DNA of 63,727 nucleotides, counting the filler, from Collodictyon triciliatum (Eukaryota): the NCBI GenBank assembly GCA_043381765.1. It is 9 parts of 9 records of this genome, joined end to end, with 100 filler letters (N's around TTAATTAATTAA, not from the genome) between each part and the next. Parts side by side here need not be neighbours in the genome. Positions count along the whole stretch, not along the records: positions 29,749 to 37,421 come from JBHJMP010003792.1; 8 more parts are not named here. One strand, given 5' to 3'. A program made the translations under genes and the position numbers. Positions 8,067 to 58,362 of this stretch are shown here, in pieces. Position 1 is the first letter of the stretch. Each line of letters opens with the position of its first letter. The notes under the pieces were generated by a model. The model saw only the letters and a program-made list of their open reading frames with translations, was not told where the DNA came from and did not search any database.

Positions 8067-8986
8067 ATGATGAAGTTTACATTACCGACCGTATTATGCT
8101 TCTCGCTTATGATAGTAATCGGTGTAATCCACGACCCGTCGAAGGCTTCAAAAGCAGCAGCCAGTTCTTCTGGTTCCAATGCTGGTGCGGAAAAACACCT
8201 TAGTTGCACGTAAGTCCAGGAAGACCCGCGCAAGGAAGCCGCCTGCAAGTCTGTCTAATCGGAAAGTATTCTTTCAATGTGTCGAGCAAGCAGTTTACAA
8301 CAAGAACAAGGCCCGCAGACTCACAGATGCGCTCGCCTCCTTCTTGAAAGCGAACAAACTTTGGGAAGAGTCCATCCAGTTGCGCTTACCGGACAGCGAA
8401 GGCCTTTGCCTGATCGCCTTCCACACTGCAGAAAACGCCCGAAAGCTTCTGGAACTGAAGCAGGTAAGTTTGAGCGATATTGTGAGCAGCTTCAGCAGAA
8501 GTAAACCAACAGAGACCTCGTTGATGCTCTACCAACTACCGCTGGACGTGTGGCTGCAACTCTTTCGTGAGGAGCTGAAGCCGTTCAGACCGACCCACGT
8601 GGATATCAAAAAGGACAAAGGCTTTTTCACAGACACGGCCGTGGTGAAGCTTCTTTGTCACAAAAACCAGCTCCTTGCAAACTTTACGGTCATGGGTAAA
8701 AAGTATCCCAAGCGCTATCCCCAAAGAGCGTCCGCCACTCGCAAACAACGAACGACGAGTAAAAGCCCCGCAAAAGAATACACCCGCCAAGCAGACAAGC
8801 AGCAACGAGGTCAAGGAAGCTAAGGCCAGGCAACAACTGAGCCCGCAAGACTCACAGCAGATACGCGCATGCAGCGACAGCGAAGACGACATGGAAGGAA
8901 ATCTCGGTTCCTCTTCAGAATCGTCGCACTTGAGCCCTTCATCGCCAACACCGGACAAGCTCGCACATCGCAAGACCCAGGAGTAA
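8067..8986 (+). mobile_element. Degenerate copy A of a repeated ORF1/gag-like element (frameshifted, 3'-truncated)
   Basis: About 8165-8983 aligns closely at DNA level with about 57057-57873. Frameshifts near 8195 and about 8720, and a stop (GAGTAA) where copy B continues. Confidence 0.7.
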
Positions 8987-9548
8987 GGCATCCTTTTTTT
9001 TTTCTTTTTTCTTTTTCGCGAATTCAGACACAAAGTAGCCGTTTTGGAGCTCAGCCATTGGGATAACTTGACAGAACACATCCTCCTTATTTCATCGCGT
9101 CTGGCGAAACGCAAATTCCGCAACCACAATCCGAATGCCTACATATATCGTCCACGGACTTTTTTCTATATTTTGGCCAGGCTACAGATGCCCTGGATTC
9201 GTACTGCATTAAGCCTTGAGAGTACACGGAAACACTTGAAACTTTGGTTATTATTGTTATTAGTTTCGGTAGGCTGGTCGTTTGCCTTCATCGAACCCTT
9301 CACCACCCAAACGAAAAAGGCGCCCGGTTTACCGAATCAAGAGAATGCAATACCCGATTTATTCGGAGTCATGAGATAATCATTCATAATTTCTATTTAA
9401 GGGAGATCCTATTGAACCGATGAGGTGGGGGGTTTTTTTTTTGAATGCACAACGGCTCAACAACACCAGCTTTCCATCGTTCTTGCAGGCATTTTCTGTT
9501 TTTGTCTGCTTTATGGGGAAAATATGATTCGCAACAGTAATTTTGGAG

Positions 9549-15480: not shown

Positions 15481-15589
15481 NNNNNNNNNNNNNNNNNNNN
15501 NNNNNNNNNNNNNNNNNNNNNNNNTTAATTAATTAANNNNNNNNNNNNNNNNNNNNNNNNNNNNNNNNNNNNNNNNNNNNATCTTTCAG

Positions 15590-16353
15590 GAAACGGAGTC
15601 CCTGTGAACGAGGCGTACGCAATCGCCCTCCTGTCAAAGTCTGTGCAGTACGGAAACAACGAGTCGCTCATCCACCTGGGCTGGTGCCATGAGAACGGAC
15701 GCGGGCTTCCTCGCGACGCAGGCCTTGCGGTGCAATGCTACAGACAGGCGCTGGACCTGGGCGAACGCCGCGCGGCGCTCTTCCTGTCAGCCTGCTTCCA
15801 AAGCGGCCTCGGCGTGGCCAAGAGCGAGCAGCAGGCCTTCAAGCTCCTGGAGATTGCAGGGCAGGACGGCGACCCGGCAGCCCTGGACCGGCTCGGCTGG
15901 TGCCTCGAGAACGGGCTTGGCGTCGACAAGGACGAGGAGCGTGCCTTCCAGCTCTACAAACGCGCGGCCGATGCCGGGCACACGTCTGCGCAGGTGACTG
16001 TGGCGCTCTTCTACCGCCGCGGGACGGGCGTCGACGCAAACACGCAGCAGTCCTTCCACTACATCCGCCTTGCCGCCGAAGCCCGCCACCCGCAGGCCAT
16101 GACCTCTCTCGGGCTCTTCTACAAGAAGGGCAAGTATGTTGCGCAGGACTACCAGAAGGCCGCAGACCTCTTCCGCGCCGCCGCAGAAGCAGGCGATGCG
16201 CACGGCATGCACAACTACGCCCTCTGCCTCGAAACAGGATGCGGGGTGGCCCAGAGCCTTGGCGATGCCTTGAGGCTCTACCAGAGGGCCCGCGCCGCCG
16301 GACTCGACAAGGCCGACGAGGACATCGCGCGTGTGAAGATGGCCGTTGCGTGA
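15590..16353 (+). CDS. Sel1-like repeat protein, last exon; 5' part missing at contig start
   Basis: About 6-7 Sel1 repeats (LGWCHENGRG, LGWCLENGLGVDKDEERAFQLYKRAAD, YALCLETGCGV). A TTTCAG acceptor at 15584-15589 precedes the exon. GC-rich. Confidence 0.9.
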
Positions 16354-30785: not shown

Positions 30786-30949
30786 CTTATCTTGCTTTCT
30801 ATTTCTTTTCCTCCTCAAAATCTCATCTCGATCCGAGAGTTTCACTAGCAATTATCAATATCCTCTTTAACTTAAAGCAAAAAAAAACCCACAAACTCCC
30901 CCAAAAAACAAAACAAAACAAAACAAAAAAAAAAAAACAGCCAGAAACG

Positions 30950-32363
30950 ATGAACTTCTTTCGCTTTGTTGGAGACATGATGCACTTATTAAGTGTTCTG
31001 CTGATTTTGTTGAAGATGCAAACGTCACGCTCTTGCAAAGGTCTGTGGTTTTGTCCATTATTTTTTTCTGGGTTCCCATCCGTTCTCCTAATTACCGCCT
31101 TCGTTTGTGTTTAAAGGGCTCTCTCTCAAAAGTCAAGAGTTGTACGCACTCGTCTTTACCACCCGATATTTGGACCTATTCACGCATTACGTCTCTTTCT
31201 ACAACTCGGTCATGAAGGTAAGTAGATAGCCGTCCTAATATTTTTGAAGATCCAAGAAACAAACAAACAAACAAACAAACAAACAAACAAACAAACAAAC
31301 AAACAAACAAACAAACAAACAAACAAACAAACAAAAACATTATCGTATTAAGATTGTGGGTCTTTTCCACCTCTTTAATGATCTTCTTGGGACTATCTGT
31401 ACAAATTCATTTTTTTCAAGTAATGAATACTCATGCCCATTTCAGTGGATATCAACCTTCATCAGTTATAATGACTTGGTTCGAATTGTGGATAGATTTT
31501 TTTCCTTGTCACATCGTACGCGATCGTGTATCTCGTACGGTTCCGATACAGAAACTCATACGACCACGTCAATGACTCTTTTCGCATCGTCTTTGTGATT
31601 GCCCCCTCTCTCATCCTCGCTTTTGTTTGGAACCTAGAATATACCATCATGGAGGTACGAAAAAGATAGGGATGTTGGAATTCATTCAATTCTGTGAAGT
31701 AAATCATCCTTTCTCTCACAGACTAACAAAATCACCCTGTTCAGATTCTATGGGCATTCAGTATCTATCTGGAAGCTATCGCAATGCTGCCACAAATGTT
31801 TATGCTCTCAAGGACGAAAGAAATCGATATTGTTACGTCTCATTACATGGCTGCATTGGGCGGGTACCGTGTGATGTATGTCTTGAACTGGATATATCGG
31901 TATAGTTATTTCCCTTAAATTATAAAATAAAGATACAAAAAAAGATATTCAAAGATAGATAAAAGGGACTCTATCTCGGCCGTGATTGTCTGTTGGGAGC
32001 TGATGCCTATTCTTTCGTTCAGTCGCTGCGTCTTAAACACACTAAAATCTTACTAAACAAGACAGCCCTCATATCTCATTACTGAATACGCAAACCAGGT
32101 ACATGGAGAATGACCCAATCCCTACATTCACATGGGTTTCAGGAGTAATTCAGTCGCTACTTTATTGTGACTTCTTTTATCTTTACTTCCTTGCGTAAGT
32201 CTAGGAACCCTGTGAATCATCCTATAAAAGTGTCACTTATAATCTTTAGTTTCCTCTCGCAATTCATTCACCCTTTCCTATTTACGACATACATGTTTAT
32301 CAGTTACCCACACATTAATTCAATAGGTGGAAGACCGGAAAGAAGATGTCTCTTCCCTTGTAA
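30950..32363 (+). CDS. ERD2: ER lumen protein-retaining (KDEL) receptor, 6 exons, complete
   Basis: [84 protein letters not shown] and KMSLPL*. Confidence 0.96.
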
Positions 32364-32494
32364 TCAAAGTACCGGGGCATCTGAAAAGGCTGATTTTTTT
32401 CTTCACCTTCCTCATTTCTTGCTTTTCTGCTATTGACCACTTAAAGCCCAACACAATGGGGCTGCGCGCGGTGGGATGAAGCACAATAAACTGA

Positions 32495-33039
32495 TTTTTT
32501 TTCTTCTCTTTATTCGATTCAAAGTGCAGCGAGGTATGCCATACAAAGGGGTGAGATAGGTGCGCATGGTAGAGAGCAAACGCGAGTAGGGGAAGACACT
32601 ACTATGGAGAGGGTATCACTGGAAAGAAGTCAGTGATAGCGAGCTGGTCAGGTGGGCGTCCCAACTGGTTGATTGGCTGCGTGAATAGCAGGGGTTGGAT
32701 ATGCTGTGGGAGATATCTTACGACACATTCCCACACCTCTCTTCGCTTGCGGTCAGAGTAGCGAAGAATGCGGGCGTGTTTCAGCAGGCTGTTCAGGAAG
32801 CTGTATTGCACGAGGGTTTCAAGCCTCGGTACATCGATTTCTCGTTCGAGTGAATCATTAGAGCGAGAGAATGCACGCACACTCAATAAGGACCACAGCA
32901 TATGTCCCCTTGTGACTGTCCAGAGTATTCTAGAGCCATGAGTCATTTGGTATTGTGGGCCAAACAGGATGTCTGACGCGCTGAGTCGGTTGGGAGCATA
33001 ATCAAGTTCAAAGTGCGACCACAACCCAAAATCGTTCAA
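32495..33039 (-). mobile_element. 3' fragment of a LINE-like element, copy 1 (ORF C-terminus, 3' UTR, A-rich tail)
   Basis: 145-aa open frame ILFG..LWTVTRGHMLWSLL..YSDRKRREVW..QLAITDFF. The UTR ends TTTGAATCGAATAAAG plus an A-rich tail. Homologous to 34178-34585. No RT core is visible, so LINE identity is inferred. Confidence 0.65.
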
Positions 33040-33565
33040 TGAAGGGTTTAAAAACTATCAGTCACTCATGCATATCCCTTATACTTTTTTTTCTTTTTCT
33101 TTTTTTTTTTTTTATTGCATCATGATATGATATCCATCCTTTTTTGGGCTGTTAAGCGGGGTGAAGTTCGATTATTTTTTCAAGCCCGCAAATTATCTGT
33201 TTATAAATCCCTTCGCTACTTTTTTTTCTGCGCACAAACTTCTATCCAATAATGATTAGAGCTGTGATGATACTTCAGACATCAAAATGGAGGAGTCAGG
33301 TGGGATGAGGAGGTATGATTGTGCTGCAGATCACCAAGAGAGATCAAAACGATCCAGCTGCTCTTGTGAATAGTTCAAATCCTTTTGTACCTTCTTCCTC
33401 ATGTAAAATATGGGACAGTCGCGGCTAGAATCGACAAACAAATTAATCCAGATGCACACGGAATCTTTGGTAAACGAACATAACCCCAATCGTAATTACA
33501 ATCATCATAATTATCGCCACCATCACACACACAAAGAATATCAAGTAGTCGATACTCTCAATTTA

Positions 33566-34177
33566 NNNNNNNNNNNNNNNNNNNNNNNNNNNNNNNNNNN
33601 NNNNNNNNNNNNNNNNNNNNNNNNNNNNNNNNNNNNNNNNNNNNNNNNNNNNNNNNNNNNNNNNNNNNNNNNNNNNNNNNNNNNNNNNNNNNNNNNNNNN
33701 NNNNNNNNNNNNNNNNNNNNNNNNNNNNNNNNNNNNNNNNNNNNNNNNNNNNNNNNNNNNNNNNNNNNNNNNNNNNNNNNNNNNNNNNNNNNNNNNNNNN
33801 NNNNNNNNNNNNNNNNNNNNNNNNNNNNNNNNNNNNNNNNNNNNNNNNNNNNNNNNNNNNNNNNNNNNNNNNNNNNNNNNNNNNNNNNNNNNNNNNNNNN
33901 NNNNNNNNNNNNNNNNNNNNNNNNNNNNNNNNNNNNNNNNNNNNNNNNNNNNNNNNNNNNNNNNNNNNNNNNNNNNNNNNNNNNNNNNNNNNNNNNNNNN
34001 NNNNNNNNNNNNNNNNNNNNNNNNNNNNNNNNNNNNNNNNNNNNNNNNNNNNNNNNNNNNNNNNNNNNNNNNNNNNNNNNNNNNNNNNNNNNNNNNNNNN
34101 NNNNNNNNNNNNNNNNNNNNNNNNNNNNNNNNNNNNNNNNNNNNNNNNNNNNNNNNNNNNNNNNNNNNNNNNNNNNN
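33566..34177. other. Scaffold gap of 612 N
   Basis: Pure N run with no linker. Confidence 0.98.
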
Positions 34178-34657
34178 CATGGCTCTAGAATACTCTGGAC
34201 AGTCACAAGGGGACATATGCTGTGGTCCTTATTAAAAGCGCGCCATCCTCTCGCTCTGATGATTCTATTGAGCGAGAAATCAATGTAGCCAGGCTTGAAA
34301 ACCTCATGCAATACATCTTCCTGAACAGCCTGCTGAAACACGCCCGCATTCTTCGCTACTCTAACCGCAAGCGAAGAGAGATGTGGGGAATGTGTCGTAA
34401 GATATCTCCCACAGCATATCCAACCCCTGCTACCCACGCAGCCAATCAACCAGTTGGGTCGCCCACCTGACCAACTCCCTATCGCTGATTTCTTTCCAGT
34501 TCTAGCCATTCCACAGTAGTGTCTTCTCTCACTCGCGTTTGCTCTTTACCATGCGCTCCCATCCCGCCCCTTTGTATGGCCGTGCTATTTTATTTTTCAT
34601 ACTTGTAATCGAATAGACTATGATTATTTCTCTTTGAATCGAATAAAGGAAAAAAAA
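34178..34657 (+). mobile_element. 3' fragment of the same LINE-like element, copy 2, frameshifted and inverted relative to copy 1
   Basis: Reverse complement of about 32537-32940 with scattered substitutions. Frameshifts near 34243 and 34388. Followed by TTTGAATCGAATAAAGG and an A run. Confidence 0.7.
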
Positions 34658-34763
34658 AGACTGATTATTTCTCGAAAGGCTGAGTTCGAAAGAGTACCTC
34701 GCTTTTAGTACTTCATAAGATAGCAAAGCCATTATCATGATGTAAATCGATGAGGAAGTCAAG

Positions 34764-35231
34764 ATGACGGCGGCTGTTGGCCCAATCCAGGGGATATTTG
34801 GGCCCCTGCAACAGCTGCGTCCAGAGGTAAAAACATTCTGGGCGGTGACGCGAGGCCATTTGTTAGGGACTATGTGGATAGCACGCATATACTCACGCAA
34901 AGCAAGACTCAACAACCAGCCACCCATTCCTGATAACAGGCTGAATGGCATCAAACAAATCTCTTTCCGCAGCAGCTTTCTTCGCCACCTGGACGCTCTC
35001 CATTACTCAGACCCTGTGAGAAGAGACATGTGGAAAGAAGCTGAGAAAGATATTAAACGTCGCCTTGTATCTCTCATGCAAGCACAAGACCCAGGCTACA
35101 GGCCAAACCGCAGGATGCAATTCCTGATTACCGACTACTTCTCCGCCACGCAGCATCAAGTAGCGCCCATGCAAACAAATATCAGTGAACCAAAGCCAAC
35201 ATCTCATCCTCTTACACAATTGAAAGAATAA
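34764..35231 (+). mobile_element. Diverged subfamily of the same ORF C-terminus (copy 3)
   Basis: Shared protein motifs: IFGP, WAVTRGHLL, SF..S.LRH...LHYSDPVRRDMW and QFLITDYF. Confidence 0.6.
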
Positions 35232-36081
35232 TAATAGTAAGCAGAAGATAGCCAGCATCTCCGCCATCCTGCACAAAATTGAAAGGAAGAATAAAAAATA
35301 ATAATAGTAAACAGAAGATACAAATCGAGGCAGCTGGAAGAAATAACAGCGCCAGCGTATGCATTTATTCACCTATATTCCAAACACCTCTTCGGCCTTC
35401 CTGCAGACACACGTGGGCTGGGTAAAGTCTCCGGCAGAGAACACCCTTATCCAAGGGTAAACATGTCCATGGACCGATTGAGTGTCCCTCTGGCGCGTTA
35501 TCTCCCATACGATTTTCTCTCTCCTCCGCGCCCTGTTTGGCCACTTTGTAAAATCAGTTTGAACACACGTTGACAGCAAACACAAAAATTCACGACAAAC
35601 TCATTCCACATACTCTTTTGCACCAGTGAGAATACCGTTTCATAAGTCTACGCACATACGCAAGATGGCAAAGGAAAATGCTACCTTTGTTTTCCTTTTC
35701 CTTTTCTTTCTTAATGTTCCATCCCCTTCTTTTCCCCTCTCTCTCTCCCCCCCCCCTCTACTTTTCTTTCTTTCTCTTTCATTCCCATCCTTTTATTTAT
35801 ATGAACCAAATCGATCTTGTTAGCTTCACCCAAAGTACCCCCACACGCGAACTAATCCTGTGTTGCTGGCAGATCGTTTTGGTTCACTCCTTTATTCCTT
35901 CGGTTTTTTTTCCCACATATTCTCAATTAACCTACAACTTTGTGCCCACCAATTCTTGTTTTTCTGACTCTGTCCAACAATTGTCCTAATGCTGTCGAGT
36001 CACTTTTTACCAGTCTTCGGCACTGGAAACACACTCTTAAAAACACATAGAACTATAGGAGTCAAGAGGGACATAGCCAGA

Positions 36082-39180: not shown

Positions 39181-42165
39181 TTAGTCGGGGCAGCGGGGGA
39201 GGGCAAAGACCTGGAGCCTGTTGTTGTCGCAGTCGCAGATGTAGAGGCGGGCCATGTCTGGCGCAAGGGCCATGCCGGTGGGCCCGTTGAACTGCGCGTC
39301 GGCAGAGCCCTTTGAGCCGAAGCAGTGGATCTGGCGGCCGGTGTCGCCGTCCCGCTCAAGGTCGAGAACGAGGATGCGGTGGTTTGCAGCGTCGGCAATC
39401 AGGAGCGAGCCGTGCGGGCCAAGGGTCATGTTACAGTACCCGCCGAGCCGCGGAATCGGGAGAGCGCGCAGGAAGCGGCCGGCCAGCGTGAAGATATGCA
39501 GGGCGGCGGCGCCATGGGCCAGGACGGCCAGACGATTGCCCGGCAGACAGACCAGTGCCTGCGCCTGCATCTGCATCTGCATCTGCCCAGTCTCGTCCGT
39601 GGCGCGGTGGGCAAAGGCGCAGACAAAGCGCCCGTCCCGCGTGAACTTGACGATGCGCCGATTCCCCAGGTCGGCCACAAAGACGTTGCCGAGCGCGTCC
39701 ACGGCCGTGTTGTACGGGCTGTTGAGCTGGCCCTCACCGGAACCTGCGCTGGCGTCGGCCGACCCGAGCGTGCCCACGTACTCAAAGTCCCGCTCGTACA
39801 TCTGCACGCGGTGGTTGTTCATGTCGGCGACCAGGATGCGCCCCTCCTTGCTGATGGTGATCCCCCGCGGGTAGTAGAACTGCCCCGGCCCCGCACCCTG
39901 TGTCCCGAAGCTCCGCACAAACGCAAGATCCGCAGTCAGCACCTGGATCCGGTGGTTGTTCTTGTCCACCACGTAGACATCCCCGCTCGCTGGATGCACT
40001 GCAGCCCCCCACGGGTAGTGGAACTGCAGCGGCCCGAATCCGTTGGCGAGCCCTCCGACTTTGCTGCTCATCTGCCCGATTAGCCGCAGATCCACGCGCG
40101 GCCCCGCCTCTCTCCCCTGCGTGTGCACCCACCCGGCATAGAGCTCCTCCTCTTCGTCGTCCTCTATGTCGTCCTCCTCACCGCCTTTGCCATCGTGGCT
40201 CTGGGCGCTCTCTCCGCTCTGCGTGTTCCCATCCTCCTCTGGTTTTGGCTTGCTCTCTGCTGTCGTCGGCCGCTTGCGTGTCCGCTTCGTCTGCTGTTCG
40301 CCCTCTTCAAAGAATATCGGCATTTGACTCGTGGGCTGGAAGACAGCCTGCTCTATCCTCTTGCTCGGTGCTGGAGCCTCACGCTCGAGCCCGGACTGCA
40401 GAACCTCCCGCGCATATGGAAATTGTACAAGAGTCCCATATTGCTGCTGGGCGCTCCAAGCTTGTTGGTACAGCTCCAGTCCCAGTTCGATTTGCGTGCG
40501 GATGCTATACAGGTCTTCCAAATCTAACTCCAACGGCTTCATGATGGATATCTCTAGCTTCTCAGTCTATAGCCGGTCGTTGATGCGGTTCAGTATTGTA
40601 TCAAACTTTTTTTCTACATCGCCATGAGAAATCGTGCTTATAGGCATATGAATCGTGGATATAGCCAATTCATTTTGCTGAGGTTTTTTGTTTTGTACTC
40701 ATTTACATTTATATATTAATTAATTAATTAATTATTTATTATTGTTATTATTTTGCATTCATTTGTCCATTCCATATCGATATACATGCCTTATCCATAA
40801 GTTTTTCCTCCATTTGATTGATTTTCTTGTGATAGTCCACCATTTTCTTACGAATTTGACTTCTAACACTCTCAAAATTATCTTCGACCTGTAAGGATGC
40901 AAAGTGAGTGCTTTCATGCAAACCAATTATATTGGTTTTTTTTTGTAGTCAGTTTTGTATCCAATCATTATTTACATACTCTAAGAAAAAAACCGTATAT
41001 CTACACCATCTTATGGCTTTATTTCTTAACTTATTTTTTTTTGTTTAATCAAACGAGGAAGAGAGGCTCATATTCATAAAAATAACCTCCTTTTTTTAAA
41101 AAGGATGATACATGTATTGTAAAAGGAACTGTATAGGTACTTGCTCCATGCTGTCTCTGACCCTAGCTATTAGAGTGTCCAAATCCTCGATCTTTCTTTG
41201 ACCTTTGGAGCATATCTCTCCCATCCCTTCATCCACCCACTTCAGGCACTCTGAGAATGGGATGTGGGATGACAAATGGGATGCATCGTCATAAGCACAT
41301 TTCAGACAAAGGAATGGAGCGTGGGTGCATATTTTACAATAGTACTCTAGCGGATGTCCTCCATGTTTCGAGCATGTATTTGAAAGAGCCTGGTGGTCGA
41401 TTCCATCTTCCGCAATTTTTCTGCAATTAATAATTATAATAAAAACGATGATAATAGAATTGATTTAGATATTTGCAAGGAAAAAGTTGCATACAAGAGT
41501 AAAAATAAAAAAATGATGTTGCACGATAAAAGAGTAAAAAAAAAAAAAAATGCAATGACTTGCGATAAAATATCACATCAAAACTTTGAACAAACACGAT
41601 ATAACATTTATCAAACATGCATATCTTGAATTGAGGCTGAATACTTTGTGCGATGGAACTTTGTAAACGGAGCCTTCTGGTGGTAGGCATAGCACCCACA
41701 ACACAGAAAGCCGCATCCGTGGAGACATTCTACACTTGCTGGGATGCTACAGCCGTCAAATGCACAGCTTGGTGCAGGCTCCTTTCCCTTCGGTGCCTCT
41801 GCTGCTGAGTCTCCACCCGAACGTGTCCTCCAAGACGGACGTGTCTCAACCTCCGGGAAGCTCAGTGGATCGCCTTTCGGAACCGAAAAGGCCTGATTGC
41901 ACAAAGGACACTGTATTGGCAGAAGAGAGGAAGCCTTCGGGTTGTCTGCATTCTGCTGCTTGACTGCAGTTGCTTTTGGACTGCGCACAGCGTGTGCGAA
42001 TGCAAGAGACTCTGCGTGGAGGTGGAGCCGAAGAATGCACGAAGCACAGACGCCGTGGCCGCAAGGAAGTCTTCTTTTGCACTCTTTGTCGTCCCGGCAG
42101 ATCGGGCAGGGCTGTGCAAAGTTCGGGGTTTCCTTTGTGTCCCGTTCTTCCCGGCACCCTTGCAT
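39181..42165 (-). CDS. RING - B-box - B-box - coiled coil - NHL repeat protein (TRIM-NHL architecture), 4 exons
   Basis: RING: CPIC..LPCGHGVCASC..CPLC. B-box 1: CAFDGC..CLHGCGFLCCGC..H..H. B-box 2: CSKH..YYCKIC..LCLKC..H..H. Helical exon VEDNFESVRSQIRKKM..EEKLMDK. NHL repeats QFHYPWG, QFYYPRG, QLNSPYN and QFNGPTG, each followed by D..N(H/R/N)R(I/V/L). Confidence 0.88.
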
Positions 42166-45629: not shown

Positions 45630-47706
45630 AATCGTGAGTCTTCATGGCTCAGTGTCTTATCTATGGTTCACATAGCTAATTGACTCTGTCCTTGAAAATG
45701 CCAAATCCAAGTCCTTCTTATGTCCATATTCAGAAAAGTGTCCATTTTCAGAAAAGAAACTACAGGAAGACTCAACTCACCGAAACATGCATCCAGCAAC
45801 TAAATATGATAATTTTGCTCCGTATCAATTCCTTCGTTCACATATTAGCCAAGAAAATAAAAGGTAAATTATAACTTCCTTACGTTAACATTAAATACTC
45901 GCATATTGAAATTATTTTGTGTGATTTAGGGGTTTATCCAAGGTTTTATCATGTATTTTTTATGTAAATGATATCATTGATATTTAAATCATACAATCTG
46001 GAAGGAGACAATCATTTATTACATATCTAAATAAGTACTGGAACAAAAAGTGACCGGTTAGAAATAAAAAGAAATCTAATTATTATATACATTTCCTTCC
46101 TGGTTATTACAGCCTACAAAGTTGTCTTGAGTATAGTGATATGATATCTCAGTATATTTTTTCTTTTGATATTTCATCATTAAACATCGGTCTTCTTTGG
46201 TTAGGTCATTTTGGCGCTGGGTACTGAATGCAGATAGAACTGAGCTGCAAATCTCCTAAACGGCCAAAAATTATGTAAAGTCAGTGTGCCTAGAACGAAT
46301 TCAGTTTTTTGTTCAAAAATCACCGCGATAGTGAATGGAAATGAGTGGAAATATTTTTTTTTTTATTGAAAATCTGGCTTCACTTATCCAACCTTTCAAA
46401 ATGTAAATTACAAGCATCAATATTCCCAACATAGGTTCTTATTTCTTTTCGAATTCAATTGATTATGTACATTTAAGAACGTGATAATTTAATGAGAAAT
46501 TTACGAACAATTTATCCACAAGAATTATTTTCCAACAGTCTATATGTGTTATTTTATATTTTCATCTATTATAAAGTGGAAAAAGTACCGTTTTAATTAT
46601 AAATAGATCTAAATGAAAAATCGGGAACTTGACTGAATTTAACATTTCTTTATTTTCTTAAGTATAATTACAACCAAATATTTGCATTTAGATTTTCACT
46701 AACAAACTAATATTTTAACATATTATATTATTTTCATGAGAGTATAAGATTAATGTCTTCCAATTACGATGTTTGAATGCTATTCTACTGACGCGATATT
46801 AGCTTATTTTTAATTTTTTTATTCACAAAAAAATATGAAGCATCGAAACTTTGACGATAATATACCAAAAAGCTAAAAATTTATCCAAAAACATCATCAA
46901 AGAGAAATTTAATTGTTACAATGAACAATTTTTAATGGAATTAAGCAATCATTTGTTGTATGAATATTTTACCTATCTGATACTTTTAAATACCACTACT
47001 TTATTCCAATATATTGTAGTAAAATGCAAAGTCAAAAGATATCCATACAATCACATATTTTATTTGAACTCTGTACGAAAATTCCTTTTAAGTTTTTATC
47101 TAATAGTGGCTGACTTTAGTGTACTGATATATTCATTTATGTCGAAAAATCAAAATAGGAACAATTCATAAATTTTTCTTGCATTCATATTATTTTATAT
47201 CTACAGTTGATTTTGTCTTCAATTTAAAATATTGGGTACATCTAACTATATGCTAAATTACTCTTATTAAGCGACTAATAATGATTCATTTAACTATTCT
47301 GACAAATTATTAAAGAAAATTTATTTCATAATATATAATTGCATGATAAGAATAACAATATTCGTCAAGCGACATGACATGATGAATATATATTTGAACT
47401 AATTTGATATGAATCTATGAAATCATTTGTAATTCGTTAATAAAAAATAAAAATGAATAAATATCATATGAAAAAGAAACAATCTTCTAAACTGAATTAT
47501 TATTTTAAATGTTAATTATAGATATCAAACCTAAATATTTTAAAATTAAATGGTTTATTGAAAACCGGTGCTTAATTGAAAGTAAAGTAAAATGATGTAG
47601 TTGAATGGCTTGAGCCTTAAAAATGAAATTAATCAGAAAAAGAGCATAAAATATCATCTAGAATCGTTTTAATATATCCAAGGTTTAAATTCATTTTTGC
47701 ATTTCC

Positions 47707-50700
47707 ATGATAGATGAAGAGCACAACATTCGGTCTGTTGCATGTTACTTTCCTCGGTTTGTGATTTTTTCTATGAGACATAAATACTTTTTTCTAACTC
47801 ACTTTATTCTAACTCACTTTATTCGCATAGGCCTCATTTTTCTCTGCAATCTTTTGCTATCCACATGCCAGGTTTCGTCGATTTACACAGTTGGAACTGG
47901 CCATACTAATCTGGTATATAGTGTTGCTTTTTCTCCGGATGGTTCAAAGATTGCTTCAGGGGGATGGGATTCGATAATTAGAATATGGAATACTTCTGAT
48001 GGAAGGCAGATTCACACATTGATCGGGCATACCTATTACATCAGTAGTGTTATTATTACTCCTGACAGCTCAAAAATTATATCTGGAAGTTATGATAACA
48101 CAATAGGCATATGGAACATTTCAGATGGAAGTCTTAAACTTATGCTAGCAGGCCATTCCAATGATGTTTTAAGTGTTGTAGTTTCCCCTGATGGCTCCAA
48201 AATTGTTTCTGGAAGCTGGGATTTTACAATAAAAGTTTGGCATATGTCGAATGGAACCATCATAAGAACTATGATTGGTCACACTAATCTTATTCGAAGT
48301 GTTGCAGTTACTCCAGATGGTTCAAAAATAATCTCTGGAAGTGGAGATAAAACAATAAAAAATTGGAAACTGTGTGATGGAACTCTGATTCGAACATTGA
48401 TTGGGCACGAAAATACTGTTCGAAGTGTGGCAGTTACTCCAGATAATTCAAAAATAGTCTCTGGAAGCGAGGATAAAACCATAAAAATATGGAATGTTTT
48501 CGATGGGATTTTGATTCTAACATTGACAGATCATACTAGTAGCGTTAATTGCATCGCTATATCTCTCTCTGGTTTGGTATTCGTCTCGGCAAGTAGTGAC
48601 AAAACATTAAAAATTTGGAACTTGTCAGATGGCCAATTAATTAGAACAATAATTGGTCATCTCGCAACAGCTTATAGCGCTACCTTCAACACCGATGGCA
48701 GTCTAATTGTTTCAGGAGGTAACGACCGAACGGTTAGACTCTGGAATTTCTCTGACGGAAGTCAAATTTACTCAAGAGGTTTCATCATTTCAAGTATATC
48801 CACATCACAAACAAAATCGATTACAGTTTCTGGACACTCCGACAATCAAATCAGAATCTGGAATCTATCAAATGGGCAGTTAATTCGTTCTCTTTCTAAC
48901 CACTCCAACGTCGTCAATACAGTCATCATAACTCCTGATAATGAGAAAATCATCTCAGGAAGTGCTGATAAAACAATCAAAATTTGGAACGTTGATGACG
49001 GGTCTTTGATTAGAACCATCCAAGTCCATTCTGATTCGGTGAATAGTATCACAAACAACGCAGACGGGACAATAGTTATTTCTGGAAGCAGCGACAAAAC
49101 GATAAAAATAACCAATATATTGAATGGAAGTGTGCTTAAGACGCTTAGTGGACACACAGGCTCAGTTACAAGTGTCGTTTTAACTCCAGATGGCTCGAAG
49201 GTTGTTTCTGGAGGTACTGATAAAGCAATCAAAGTCTGGAAAATGACCGATGGAACTCTGATACAAGATGTGAGCGTTCATAGTGATACTGTCAATTGCG
49301 TTTGTATTTCACCAGATGGAAGCAAAGTTATTTCAGGAAGTAGCGATAGAACAGTGAAAATAACGAGTATTCTCGATGGTGGTTTGATTCGCACCCTGGG
49401 TGGACACACGGGAATAGTCAAATCCGTAGCAATCTCTCCTGATGGAGCAAAGGGTGTATCGGGAAGCGGTGACTCCATTATAAGAATATGGAATTTCCAT
49501 ACAGGAACAACAATTCATATTATGAGCGAGCACGCGGCAACGATTAATGGAATATCGATGTTGTCTGATGGCGTGAGGTTTCTTACTGCAAGTGACGATA
49601 CAACGATGAAAATGTGGAGTTTCCCTGATTTCAGTCTGATTCTAACAATCTCAGGACATACTAATACTATCAACAGCGCTGTTTTGAGTCCAGATAAATC
49701 GAAGATTATATCGGGTAGCAGTGATAGCACAATCAAAATATGGAGTTTTGTTGATGGGTCTCAGACTCTTTCGATAAGTGGACATTCTGGTGCTGTGAAC
49801 TGCGTTTTAGTCTCGGCTGATGGTTCAAAAATCGTGTCAGGAAGCAGTGATAAAACAATCAAAATGTGGAATTTCTCTGACGGAACACTAATAAAGACGT
49901 TTGATGGACACGCATCAGCCGTAAGAAGTGTTGTGATATCATCGAATGGCTCTATGATAGCATCCGGAAGCGATGACACTAACATTAATCTTTGGAGAGT
50001 CTCAGACGGTACTTTGATACGTACTATGGTGGGGCATACCAAGGGAATTAATTCTGTATTCATCTCACCCGATGCTACCAAAATTATATCAGGCAGCGCA
50101 GACTTCTCTTTAAAAATATGGAGCTTATCAGACGGTGCATTGATAAGAACGCTTACTGGTCATGGAAACTCTGTCAGATGCGTGATAGTCTCTCATGACG
50201 GTGCGAAAATAATCTCTGGTAGCAGCGATAATACAATCAAAATTTGGAATATATTTGATGGCTCATTAATTCGGACACTCACCGGGCACACCAGCTCGGT
50301 AAATGGCATTTCAATATCAACAGACGGAACGAAAGTGTATTCTGGAAGCAGTGACAAATCAGTCAAAATATGGTCACTGTCAGATGGAAGAGAAATTCGG
50401 ACACTCTTGAGCCATACAGATTCAGTCAATAGTGTTTTCGGAACTCCTGATTCCAAAATCATATCAGCAAGTACAGACAGATTTATCAAGGTCTGGAGTC
50501 CGTGTCAAGGAGGATACTTCTTCAACCAAGAGTCGAATACATGCGAACAGTGTGCGGCCGGTTCGTACAATAACGGAAACGAGCTGACCTCATGCATTCC
50601 TTGCCCAACAGGAACTTACAACCCATCCACAGGCTCCACGAGTCTGAGAGAGTGTATTTTATGCGACGAGGGCTCTTTTAATAACCAACTAGGACAATCA

Positions 50701-52958
50701 GAATGTAAAAAATGTCAAGCTGGGACATTTGTCAATACAAAAGGGCAGGTAGTATGTAACAACTGCACAGCTGGATTTTACAGCAACTCAGGAGATACAA
50801 CGTGCACTGCATGTCCAGCTGGAACTTATAATCCGAATTCTCGAGGTGCAGGAAGCTTGTCTTGTCTTCCATGCGAACCAGGTACGTACAACAGTGTCGA
50901 TGGTAAATCCAGCTGCTTTGGGTGTCCTGCCGGATTTCATGTGAACGAAAAAGGGAAAGAATTCTGCAATCCATGCCCCACGGGCACTTACTCAAACAAA
51001 ACGAGGTCTACAACATGTGAAAAATGTCCAGCCGGGACTTTCAATGCAAATGTCGTATCAACAAGCATAAGCAGCTGTCAACCGTGCCCAAAAGGGCGAT
51101 TTTCATCAAAAACAGGGGAATCAACATGTGAGGTATGCCAACCTGGCTTCTACAATCCGTTTTACGGTCAAAAGTCATGTGTGGAGTGTCCTTTGGGAAC
51201 TTACAATCCCGAGTACGAAAAAACCAGCAATAATTCATGTATTACTTGCCCTTCAGGGACATATGGAAATTCCAAAAAGAACACATGCACACCATGCCCA
51301 GCGGGTACATTCAACGATAAAACTGGGGCATTGAATCAATCATCATGCATTCCGTGTCTGAATGGCACCTACAGCTCAGAGAGAAGCTCATCATGCACTT
51401 TGTGCTCATCCGGATACTATCAAAAAGAAGGAATCACAAAAGACTCAAGTTCATGCTCTCCTTGTCCAAAAGGCTCATTCAATTCAAACTCCGGCTCATA
51501 TGGCAACTCATCATGTATTGATTGTCCACAAGGCACTTGGAATGATAGAAATGGTCAAGCATCATGCACATCATGTCCAGCTGGTACATTCAACGATAAA
51601 ACTGGCACATTTAATCAATCATCATGTGTTTCATGTCCAAACGGTAGTTACAGCTTAACTGGAAGTACATCATGCATCTCATGTTCACCAGGACTCTATC
51701 AAAAAGAAAGCATCACAAAAGACTCAAGTTCATGCTATGCTTGTCCAAAAGGCACATTCAACTCAAACTCTGGCTCATATGGAAACAAGTCATGCATTGA
51801 ATGTCCACAAGGCACTTGGAATGATAGAGATAGGCAAGCATCATGCACATCATGTCCAGCTGGTACATTCAACAACAAAACTGGCTCGTTCAATCAATCA
51901 TCATGTATTTTATGTCCAAACGGAAGCTACAGCTCAGAAAGAAGCTCGTCATGCAGTCTGTGCTTATCAGGATTCTATCAAAAAGAAGAAATCACAAAAG
52001 ACTCACAGTCATGTCATGCTTGTCCAAAAGGCTCATTCAACTCAAACTCTGGCTCATATGGAAACCAATCATGCATTGAATGTCCACAAGGTACTTGGAA
52101 CGATAGAGATGGCCAAGCATCATGCACATCGTGTCCAGCTGGAACATTTAATAATAAAACTGGCTCATTCAATCAATCATCATGTGTTTCATGTCCGAAT
52201 GGAAGCTACAGCTTATCTGGGAGTGCATCATGCAGTCTATGTTTATCAGGATTCTATCAAAAAGAAGACATAACAAAAGACTCAAGCTCATGCTATGCTT
52301 GTCCAAAAGGCACATTCAACTCATACTCCGGCTCATATGGCAATACATCATGTATTGAATGTCCACAAGGTACTTGGAATGATAGAGATGGTCAGGTATC
52401 ATGCACATCATGTCCAGCTGGTACATACAACAACAAAACTGGCTCATTCAATCAATCGCAATGCATTTCATGTCCGAATGGAAGCTACAGCTCAGAAAGA
52501 AGCTCATCATGTATCTCATGTTTATCAGGATTCTATCAAAAAGAAGGAATCACAAAAGACTCAAAATCATGCTATGCTTGTCCAAAAGGCTCATTCAACT
52601 CAATTTCCGGCTCATATGGAAACTCATCATGTATTGAATGTCTACAAGGTACTTGGAATGATAGAGATGGTCAGGCATCATGCACATCATGTCCAGCTGG
52701 TACATTCAACAATAAAACTGGCTCATATGATCAACCATCATGTGTTTCGTGTCCGAATGGAAGCTACAGCTTATCTGGGAGTGCATCATGCAGTCTATGT
52801 TTATCCGGGTACTACCAAAAAGAAGGAATCACAAAAGACTCAGAATCATGCCACGCTTGTCCAAAAGGCACATTCAACTCAAACTCCGGCTCATATGGAA
52901 ACTCATCATGCATTGAATGTCCACAAGGCACTTGGAATGATAGAGATGGTCAAGCGTC
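47707..52958 (+). CDS. Giant intronless protein: hydrophobic N-terminus, 21 WD40 repeats, Cys-rich (CxxCPxGT(Y/F)) repeats; 3' end truncated
   Basis: Open frame of more than 5.2 kb. GH...SGSxDxTIKIW repeats span about 47896-50500, and TNFR/GCC2-GCC3-like Cys repeats start at about 50503. Start is either 47707 or 47773. Confidence 0.92.
51290..52958 (+). repeat. Coding tandem repeat, 279-bp (93-aa) unit, about 6 copies
   Basis: The GTWNDR codons recur at 279-nt intervals (GATAGA at 51544, 51823, 52102, 52381, 52660, 52939). Confidence 0.9.
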
Positions 52959-53281
52959 NNNNNNNNNNNNNNNNNNNNNNNNNNNNNNNNNNNNNNNNNN
53001 NNTTAATTAATTAANNNNNNNNNNNNNNNNNNNNNNNNNNNNNNNNNNNNNNNNNNNNTTTTCTTTCTTTTTTTTTTCTCTCTTTTTTTTTTCTCTCTCT
53101 TTTTTTTTTCTCTCTTTTTTTTCTCTCTCTTTTTTTTCTCTCTCTTTTTTTTCTCTCTCTTTTTTTTCTCTCTCTTTTTTTTCTCTCTCTTTTTTTTTCT
53201 CTCTCTTTTTTTTCTCTCTCTTTTTTTTTCTCTCTCTTTTTTTTTCTCTCTCTTTTTTTTTCTCTCTCTTTTTTTTTCTCT

Positions 53282-57045: not shown

Positions 57046-58362
57046 GGCTCGGTTGGTTCTTCCAGTTCTAACCCCGATGCAGAGAAATCCCAAATTGTAC
57101 GTAAGTCCAAGAAGACCCGTGCAAGGAAGCCGTCTGCAAGTCTGTCTGAGCGGAAAGTATTTTTGCACGGGGTCGAGCAAGTCGTTTACAACAAGAACAA
57201 GGCCCGCAGGCTCACAGATGCGCTCGCCTCCTTCTTGAAAGCGAACAAACTTTGGGAAGAGTCCATCCAATTGCGCTTACCGGACAGCGAAGGCCTTTGC
57301 CTGATCGCCTTCCGCACTGCAGAAAACGCCCGAAAGCTTCTGGAGCTGAAGCAGGTAAGTTTGATCGATATTACGATCAGCTTCAGCAGAAGTAAACCAA
57401 CAGAGACCTCGGTGATGATCTACCAACTACCGCTGGACGTGTGGCCGCAACTCCTTCGTGAGGAGCTGAAGCCGTTCAGACCGACCCACGTGGAGATCAA
57501 AAAGGACAAAGGCTTCTTCACAGACACGGCCGTGGTGAAGCTTCTTTGTCACAAGAACCAGCTCCCTGCAAAGTTTACGGTCATGGGCAAAAAGTGTCCA
57601 AAGCGCATCCTCAAAGAGCGTCCGCCAGCCGCGAACAACGAACGACAAGTAAAAGCCCCGCAAAAGAATACACCTGCCAAGCAGACAAGCAGCAACGGGG
57701 TCAAGGAAGCCAAGGCCAGGCAACAACTGAGCCCGCAAGACTCACAGCAGATACGCGCATACAGCGACAGCGACGATGACATGGAAGGAAATCTCGGTTC
57801 CTCTTCAGAATCCTCGCACTCGAGCCCTCCACCGCCAACACCGGACAAGCCCGTACATCGCAAGACCCAAGAGCAGCGCATCTCCAAACCCCGAAAGAAA
57901 TCCCCCCTTAAACTACCCATTCAGACTGACGTGAATATGGTTAACATAGGAGGCCTCAAGGCAGTCTTCGTTACTTATCCGAAAGGATACTCCAAATCGA
58001 AGGCAACACAAGAACCAGCGCCCACCAAAGATAGTCCGTTTACCCTGCCCCAGCCCGTCGCACCGAGAACCAAGGAGCAAGAGCAAACAGCACAAGTCGA
58101 ATCCAAGCTTGGAACTTCACACACTAAAGACAGTCCGAGCAAGCAGGAGCGTATGTTTCTAAAACCACAAACGCGTATCCATACTCCGGTTAAGCAAAGT
58201 CCACTGCCGGCTACGCATGGTCCCGATGCCAGGGGACGGTCAAGCGCCACTTCCGATAATTCCAGACAAACAACGATGTATCGCTTTTTGTCAGAGTCGC
58301 CCAGCAAGAAACGCAAGGAAAGTGACCCGTTGTCCGCTCAAAAGACTCAATCTGTGGAATGA
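57046..58362 (+). mobile_element. Copy B of the ORF1/gag-like element; open frame but no 5' ATG
   Basis: Frame open from 57046 to TGA at 58360-58362. RRM-like segments (GLCLIAF; VMIYQLPLDV..LREELKPF..TAVVKL) are followed by a disordered S/P/K tail. Duplicated at about 8165-8983. Confidence 0.65.

What the first reader, a model, noticed from the sequence alone, without database searches (positions are those of the whole stretch)
32602..35231. LINE-like ORF C-terminus carries a conserved PCNA-binding PIP box in two diverged subfamilies
Seen: three homologous C-terminal fragments end in QLAITDFF (32623-32646, minus), QLPIADFF (34472-34495, frameshifted copy) and QFLITDYF (35118-35141). Copy 3 is very diverged elsewhere yet keeps this motif. 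Known: Q-x-x-[ILM]-x-x-[FY]-[FY] is the PIP consensus, and TD at positions 5-6 marks the high-affinity p21/Cdt1 type. Human L1 ORF2p has a PIP box, but between the endonuclease and RT domains, not at the C-terminus. The +4 basic residue of a PIP degron is absent here. Inference: this family may tether to the replication or repair clamp through a C-terminal tail.
Basis: partly seen in the sequence, partly recalled or inferred. Interest (0 to 1): 0.72.

Follow-up and report, generated by a model that had tools for sequence, protein, structure and literature searches.

The report
LINE enzyme tail with PCNA-docking motif
Three dead fragments of LINE jumping genes show that one small group of these elements has added a short tail to its enzyme ending in a classic docking peptide for the DNA sliding clamp PCNA, which suggests, but does not prove, that they latch onto host replication or repair sites in a different way from human LINE-1.

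Summary
Observation confirmed. The three fragments are 5'-truncated dead copies of two high-copy LINE families (A: copies 1 and 2; B: copy 3) whose ORF2 has endonuclease, RT and zf-RVT domains. The motif is canonical in 55 of 64 A and 71 of 90 B copies, 7 or 14 codons before the stop. A third family and a lineage not found in this genome keep it too. Across four lineages identity is 65% in the motif and 13% in the 30 columns before it, with synonymous changes as frequent as in the core. It lies beyond the part matching the human ORF2p C-terminal domain; 0 of 45 out-of-clade tails carry it. A model docks it in PCNA's PIP pocket (0.74, best control 0.02), possibly from memory. Correction: most B copies carry the +4 arginine of a PIP degron (51 of 82 full pattern); A has none. 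Against: one clade member is non-canonical, within-family data do not single out the motif, and binding is unmeasured. This scan noted the motif three times before in the same genome.

The parts
32492..33016 (-). Copy 1: 5'-truncated family A LINE fragment (end of ORF2 C-terminal domain, linker, PIP box, 3' UTR, short A tail)
   Evidence: 90.9% identical over 526 nt to family A copy L042
32623..32646 (-). PIP box QLAITDFF of copy 1 (majority family A form); stop 7 codons later
34183..34658 (+). Copy 2: decayed family A fragment with two 1-nt indels; 5' part lost in an assembly gap
34472..34495 (+). Decayed PIP box QLPIADFF of copy 2 (private variant, 1 of 64 copies)
34759..35305 (+). Copy 3: 5'-truncated family B LINE fragment, frameshifted just after the motif, with a short duplication in the 3' UTR
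   Evidence: 89.8% identical over 481 nt to family B copy L043, plus a second 56-nt match
35118..35141 (+). PIP box QFLITDYF of copy 3 (majority family B form)
   Evidence: contacts the PIP pocket in the model
35151..35153 (+). +4 position after the PIP box: Gln in this copy, Arg in most family B copies

Best explanation
The fragments are dead copies of L1-like (APE-RT-CCHC) non-LTR retrotransposons. The ancestor of one small clade (families A, B, C of this genome, plus the lineages of P0124 and probably P0126) gained a 25-35 residue extension after the folded C-terminal domain of ORF2p: a fast-evolving linker followed by a canonical, TD-type PIP box kept by selection on the protein. Most likely it binds the PIP pocket of host PCNA and tethers ORF2p to clamp-loaded DNA (replication forks or repair sites), either to find a nickable target or to help finish the insertion. 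Shown: architecture, position, conservation, protein-level constraint. Inferred: single gain in the clade ancestor, exposure on a flexible arm, PCNA binding. Not shown: the step of transposition it serves.
For: Architecture: Exo_endo_phos + RVT_1 in L137, RVT_1 then zf-RVT then tail in one copy, L042; best solved match human ORF2p, E 7.6e-45. Retention: canonical in 55 of 64 A and 71 of 90 B copies; 17 of 23 and 40 of 51 among copies found by the zf-RVT search, which does not see the motif. Further lineages: family C QTAI[NT]DFF in 2 of 2 copies here, P0122 QTAITDFF, P0124 QSVITNFF, P0211 QTVITDFF; P0124 has no close match among the scored candidates in this genome. Four-lineage identity: core 48% (441/912), 30 columns before the motif 13% (23/171), motif 65% (31/48), after it 29% (12/42). 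Of identical residues, 9 of 15 in the motif use different codons against 56 of 98 in the core, and no shared RNA structure covers it (z 0.1, -1.9, 1.0). Control: 2 of 49 zf-bearing tails have a PIP in the last 40 residues, both in the clade; chance about 0.003 per tail. Clade support 95/95; tails run 169-177 residues from the zinc finger against 114-152 outside. Model residues 18-226 match human 1079-1266 (Z 11.4, rmsd 4.0, 173 aligned) while 231-258, holding the motif, have pLDDT under 50. The human internal PIP aligns to KTNIQNFY in family B, without the Gln. Complex model: 0.74 against best control 0.02; the mark was reached by 51 of 78 solved complexes and 2 of 108 mismatched pairs; runs agree in at least 84% of contacts, partner pLDDT at least 64; contacts are tail residues 28-39 (the motif) with PCNA 40, 43-47, 124-129, 208, 233-234, 250-255.
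Against: No binding measurement. The model can pass from memory of solved PIP-PCNA complexes, peptides were not in its calibration, and the PCNA used (P0001) is a stand-in, 95% identical over the 106-residue first exon. P0126, inside the clade with a full-length tail, has QYFNTPFF, lacking the hydrophobic position 4. Within families the motif is not singled out: shared non-CpG variants give pN/pS 0.03 in the A linker against 0 in the motif (2 syn, 0 nonsyn), and in B 0.21 in the linker against 0.97 in the motif (1 syn, 4 nonsyn: two F2L, Y7F, D6G); numbers are small. The motif window ranks 28 of 196 windows in the domain: it stands out from its neighbours, not from the core. Family D and four full-length relatives transposed without such a tail. 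Only four or five lineages, pairwise counts not independent. No single intact full-length copy was seen; family B was linked across overlapping copies. PIP-like motifs can bind other hubs (PMC7145657, passages).
Confidence: 0.75

Rival explanations
1. The tail is a PIP degron: PCNA binding triggers CRL4-Cdt2 destruction of ORF2p, limiting its lifetime after insertion or in S phase. This would be an addition to the best explanation, in some lineages only.
For: Full pattern Q-x-x-I-T-D-[FY]-F-x-x-x-[RK] in 51 of 82 family B copies; +4 codon CGG 62, CGA 5, AGG 1, AAG 3, CAG 15 of 89, the CAG share lying within the range of other CpG sites (3-16 of 84-90) and unlinked to other variants. +4 is Arg in both family C copies here and in P0211. 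Signature taken from PMC3973308 (passages).
Against: 0 of 59 family A copies; P0122 has His and P0124 Pro at +4, and P0124 has TN. The CpG loss at +4 (16 of 89) is at the top of the range, so nothing shows the Arg is protected; the linkage test is weak because few sites are linked at all. Host Cdt2 was not looked for.
Confidence: 0.15
2. The motif is a PIP-like double-aromatic helix whose main partner is another repair hub (Rev1 C-terminal domain, Mlh1) or a surface of ORF2p itself.
For: ELM review: many PIP-like motifs bind at least two of these hubs (PMC7145657, passages). The A linker is as constrained as the motif within the family; P0126 keeps Q, T and FF but not position 4.
Against: Q1, I4, T5 and F8 are invariant in four lineages, matching the full PCNA signature including TD; the model leaves the tail undocked on its own domain (pLDDT under 50, shallow alignment).
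Confidence: 0.12
3. The sequence is conserved for an RNA-level reason (3' end recognised by the RT) or is a chance match.
For: 16 canonical matches occur by chance in the window's six frames; A and C share 19 of 24 nt in the motif and a weak 3' UTR similarity near the A tail (score 27, shuffled max 26).
Against: B differs from A and C at synonymous sites (4 of 5 and 3 of 4 identical residues; 15 and 13 of 24 nt), no common fold over the motif; same position in four lineages with chance about 0.003 per tail.
Confidence: 0.04

Closest known systems
Human LINE-1 ORF2p and PCNA (internal PIP box, residues about 404-419; wrist PUB motif)
   Same: APE-RT-CCHC protein; best sequence match and best fold match (Z 15.0, rmsd 3.9, 369 aligned); PCNA reported as a needed partner (PMC10830420, PMC7617806, passages).
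   Different: Here the motif is a canonical TD-type PIP on an extension past the end of the human-like C-terminal domain. The human internal PIP position lacks its Gln in family B, and the wrist holds a predicted beta-barrel where the human PUB helix may map (low-confidence mapping).
p21/Cdt1/Set8 PIP degrons (CRL4-Cdt2 substrates)
   Same: TD at positions 5-6 in families A, B, C; basic +4 residue in B and some C (signature from PMC3973308).
   Different: +4 basic residue missing in A, P0122, P0124; carried by a transposon enzyme; degradation untested.
Drosophila pogo DNA transposase PIP box
   Same: A transposon enzyme bearing a PIP box (PMC4103810, passage); its C-terminal position is recalled, from no call.
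   Different: Cut-and-paste DNA transposase, unrelated protein; here a retrotransposon ORF2p.
R2 retrotransposon protein
   Same: Non-LTR RT with related thumb and C-terminal fold (Z 10-12).
   Different: Restriction-like endonuclease, no PIP box and no known PCNA role (PMC10830420, passage).

Membership tests
L1-like (APE-type) non-LTR retrotransposon | N-terminal APE endonuclease in ORF2 | tested here: met
   PF03372 E 1.9e-16 at 8-233 of L137 ORF; endonuclease pieces upstream of RT in family A copy L129
L1-like (APE-type) non-LTR retrotransposon | Non-LTR type RT followed by CCHC zinc finger domain | tested here: met
   RVT_1 and zf-RVT over cut-off; fold match to human ORF2p 779-1247
L1-like (APE-type) non-LTR retrotransposon | ORF1 upstream of ORF2 | tested here: inconclusive
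   Long low-complexity frames end just before the ORF2 start in both families; only broken pieces seen, no family scan run on them
L1-like (APE-type) non-LTR retrotransposon | Dispersed, mostly 5'-truncated copies ending in an A-rich tail | tested here: met
   First-look candidates: tails 1521 and 1617, RT 217, endonuclease 184; A tails in most of the 16 copies printed
L1-like (APE-type) non-LTR retrotransposon | Target-site duplications; placement in L1 versus Tx1 by RT tree with named references | not tested
   No reference set at hand; closest solved structure is human L1
Canonical PIP box | Q-x-x-[ILMV]-x-x-[FY]-[FY] | tested here: met
   55 of 64 A, 71 of 90 B, 2 of 2 C copies, P0122, P0124, P0211; not P0126
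Canonical PIP box | Exposed, in a flexible or terminal region | tested here: met
   7-14 residues from the end, outside the folded domain, pLDDT under 50; prediction only
Canonical PIP box | Binds the PIP pocket of PCNA | not testable with these tools
   Model supports it (0.74, best control 0.02; mark reached by 51 of 78 solved and 2 of 108 mismatched pairs) but may pass from memory
PIP degron (CRL4-Cdt2) | TD at positions 5-6 | tested here: met
   51 of 64 A and 66 of 90 B copies canonical with TD; P0124 has TN
PIP degron (CRL4-Cdt2) | Basic residue at +4 | tested here: inconclusive
   Met in family B (51 of 82 full pattern) and 3 of 4 C-type sequences; not met in A (0 of 59) or P0124
PIP degron (CRL4-Cdt2) | Cdt2 in the host and PCNA-dependent degradation | not tested
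   No Cdt2 query was run; degradation needs an experiment
Human-type PUB site in the wrist | Helix bearing W1011 and I1014 equivalents | tested here: inconclusive
   The human residues map with low confidence to model residues near 239-245, which are strands in the model

The most novel reading that the evidence does not exclude
This LINE lineage rebuilt the wrist of ORF2p into a Tudor/SH3-like barrel, losing the human-type PCNA surface, and one clade then regained PCNA binding by adding a high-affinity terminal PIP box, tuned in some families into a self-destruct degron; PIP-like peptides in ORF1 proteins of the same genome would be further independent gains. Clamp binding would then be a repeatedly reinvented need of LINEs, and the barrel a possible chromatin or nucleic-acid reader for target choice.
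Probability: 0.2. Interest if true: 0.8.

Novelty: new variant of a known kind. Interest (0 to 1): 0.55.

Why it matters
How human ORF2p binds PCNA, and at which step, is unsettled (PMC12503042, passage), partly because the proposed sites are buried in or part of folded domains. A LINE clade with a canonical PIP on a detachable tail offers a clean test: the motif can be mutated, or grafted onto another ORF2p, without touching the fold. It would also show that LINEs far from mammals select for clamp binding. It is limited by resting on one genome plus a few database fragments and on no binding data. Seven paper searches (open-licence PMC and bioRxiv only) listed nothing that describes a C-terminal PIP in a LINE ORF2, judged from listings and the passages read.

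Tried and rejected
Pfam on the window fragments and the 57046 and 8128 ORFs: 0 of 5 hit. The window ORF at 57046-58362 as ORF1 of families A or B: rejected, it was not found upstream of the endonuclease in the loci (one short 38-residue match in L267) and ends in its own 3' tail. Full-length relatives with the alignment A3: none among 7433 candidates; near-length search gave 8 proteins, all in the clade; metagenome scan gave 1 locus, a family A copy, so the host range of the clade stays unknown. Single-sequence search of the B C-terminal half against solved structures: nothing meaningful; Foldseek on the small model: no E under 0.001, human ORF2p ranked first. The second structure model was cut about 50 residues short and does not include the tail, so it says nothing about tail docking. 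Atlas search of the wrist barrel: only unnamed clusters. Family E (L121, L122): 2 copies, C-terminus not recovered. RNA-structure explanation rejected. Tree label test needed 2 changes because P0126 (non-canonical) and P0212 (truncated) sit inside the clade; root is midpoint only. Copies under 78% identity or not spanning the motif were dropped before the counts. Host lineage was not determined; expression data were not examined. No supplements were read.

Full report
Observation. The window is a join of several contigs of a fragmented 75 Mb eukaryotic assembly; the finding lies on contig C3792. Copy 1 spans 32492-33016 (-), copy 2 34183-34658 (+), copy 3 34759-35305 (+). Copies 1 and 2 are one family (A; 89.6% identical), copy 3 another (B). 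The PIP pattern alone is common: 16 matches in the window's six frames, 2 with TD.

What the fragments are. Searches of the own genome gave 1617 and 1521 first-look candidates for the two tails, 217 for the RT and 184 for the endonuclease, the gradient expected of 5'-truncated LINE copies; most of the 16 copies printed end in a short A tail. Copy L042 holds RT, then zf-RVT, then the A tail. L137 holds a 749-residue frame with endonuclease and RT, linked to the B tail through overlapping copies L124, L125 and L133. Its best solved match is human LINE-1 ORF2p (E 7.6e-45), far ahead of R2. A and B are about 50% identical in the C-terminal half. No intact full-length copy was seen.

Conservation within families. 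Among distinct copies spanning the motif at 78% identity or more, it is canonical in 55 of 64 (A) and 71 of 90 (B); among copies found through the zinc finger alone, 17 of 23 and 40 of 51. Singleton changes are near neutral (pN/pS 0.7-1.1 in most regions, up to 2.3 in the B linker), as expected for dead copies, whereas changes shared by four or more copies are purified in the core and linker (0.03-0.29) and not after the motif (1.15 in A, 0.78 in B). This shows selection up to about the motif, but it does not single the motif out: A has 2 synonymous and 0 nonsynonymous shared changes there, B has 1 and 4 (F2L twice, Y7F, D6G).

Conservation between lineages. A rare third family (C, 2 copies found) ends in QTAI[NT]DFF, and database proteins P0122, P0211 (C-type) and P0124 end in QTAITDFF, QTVITDFF and QSVITNFF. 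P0124 and P0126 have no close match among the scored candidates here, so they probably come from other genomes. Over A, B, P0122 and P0124, pairwise identity is 48% in the core, 13% in the 30 columns before the motif, 65% in the motif and 29% after it; Q1, I4, T5 and F8 are invariant. Nine of 15 identical motif residues use different codons, against 56 of 98 in the core, and no RNA fold is shared: the constraint is on the protein. Of 49 zinc-finger-bearing proteins with long tails, 2 have a PIP in the last 40 residues, both in the clade; the rest include one truncated family A piece and P0126, leaving 0 of 45 outside. A tree of the core, tail excluded, groups A, B, C, P0124, P0212 and P0126 at 95/95, and these have longer tails where complete. 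The exception is P0126 (QYFNTPFF), which lacks position 4. Family D of this genome ends without a tail.

Position in the protein. The modelled C-terminal domain matches human residues 1079-1266 with model residues 18-226 (Z 11.4, rmsd 4.0, 173 aligned); the motif (237-244) lies beyond, in a stretch with pLDDT under 50 (five-sequence alignment, so low confidence may also reflect depth). The human internal PIP (QTTIREYY) aligns to KTNIQNFY in family B, and the equivalent helix lacks a Gln at that place in family A and four full-length relatives. A second, confident model (pLDDT 91) matches human 779-1247 (Z 15.0, rmsd 3.9, 369 aligned) and shows a beta-barrel in the wrist (residues about 173-243) resembling Tudor/KOW/PWWP folds (PHF19 Tudor Z 6.1, rmsd 1.9, 48 aligned). 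Such Z values can reflect only a common small fold. The barrel seems shared with PIP-less relatives, so it is older than the tail. Whether it displaces the human PUB helix is inconclusive.

PCNA. The host has a PCNA gene split by introns. P0001, 95% identical over the first exon, served as a stand-in. The last 43 residues around the copy 3 motif scored 0.74 against a best control of 0.02; the mark was reached by 51 of 78 solved complexes and 2 of 108 mismatched pairs (in eukaryotes 71 of 105 and 2 of 126); runs agree in at least 84% of contacts, partner pLDDT at least 64; contacts fall on the motif and on PCNA 40-47, 124-129, 208, 233-234 and 250-255, which from established knowledge is the PIP pocket. 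Solved PIP-PCNA complexes are many, so this shows likeness, not binding.

Degron. In family B it is Arg or Lys in 71 of 89 readable copies; the 15 Gln codons are the CpG-decay product, at a rate within but at the top of the range of other CpG sites; the full degron pattern is in 51 of 82 B and 0 of 59 A copies. Both C copies here and P0211 have Arg; P0122 and P0124 do not. So active B elements probably matched the signature of PMC3973308 (passages), but the feature is patchy and its function unshown.

Mechanism. Shown: a selected, terminal, canonical PIP-pattern peptide on a fast-evolving linker. Inferred (0.75): it binds PCNA and tethers ORF2p to clamp-loaded DNA, as PCNA is proposed to do for human L1 in target finding (PMC7617806, passages) or in RNase H2 recruitment (PMC10830420, passages). 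Rivals: degron in some families (0.15), another hub or self-docking (0.12), RNA-level or chance (0.04).

Novelty. LINE-PCNA contact is known for human L1, and a PIP box is known in pogo transposase (PMC4103810, passage). Seven searches listed no paper on a C-terminal PIP in a LINE ORF2; the library omits most subscription papers, and I read only passages of six papers. The scan itself noted this motif three times in the same genome; those notes are not independent evidence. Verdict: new variant of a known kind, interest 0.55.

Noticed in passing
L043:858-2300 (-), model residues about 173-243 (not in the window fragments): Predicted beta-barrel in the ORF2p wrist resembling Tudor/KOW/PWWP folds (best Z 6.1, rmsd 1.9, 48 aligned), apparently shared by families A-D and four full-length relatives. 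One paper search found nothing; fold likeness only.
   Followed up: partly
window 57046-58362 (+) and 8164-8992 (+): A separate high-copy element (514 first-look candidates) with one ORF1-like frame and its own 3' end, no ORF2 seen behind it. Its tail holds a PIP-like QTTMYRFL followed by a basic patch; the pattern Q-x-x-M-x-x-F-L is in 21 of 25 loci fetched. No selection test done.
   Followed up: partly
L266, L278, L286, about 560 nt upstream of the ORF2 start: Family B ORF1 region carries a PIP-like Q-x-N-I-A-x-F-M in 3 of 5 regions scanned; 0 of 9 family A regions had a match to the relaxed pattern. May be chance.
   Followed up: partly
L135, L162-L181; L110, L182-L191: A distant LINE family D ends without a PIP tail, and a non-coding SINE-like repeat shares its 3' end.
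   Followed up: partly
L121, L122: A fifth RT family (E), 2 copies found, C-terminus not recovered.
   Followed up: partly
families A and B, 3' region: CpG sites show frequent TG/CA changes (3-23 per 60-90 copies), which may point to methylation of these repeats in the host; no non-CpG control was computed.
   Followed up: no
window about 30900-32200 (+) and from 36083 (+): Flanking intron-rich host genes look like a KDEL receptor and a Rab GTPase (names recalled from the translations, not tested).
   Followed up: no
window 47689-53010 (+), 15581-16353 (+), 39181-40566 (-): A 1773-codon frame with WD40-like repeats followed by cysteine-rich repeats, a Sel1-like repeat frame and an NHL-like repeat frame (labels recalled, not tested).
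   Followed up: no
L061 (G000:C7255): Host PCNA gene, one match in the genome, split by introns and incomplete on this contig.
   Followed up: partly
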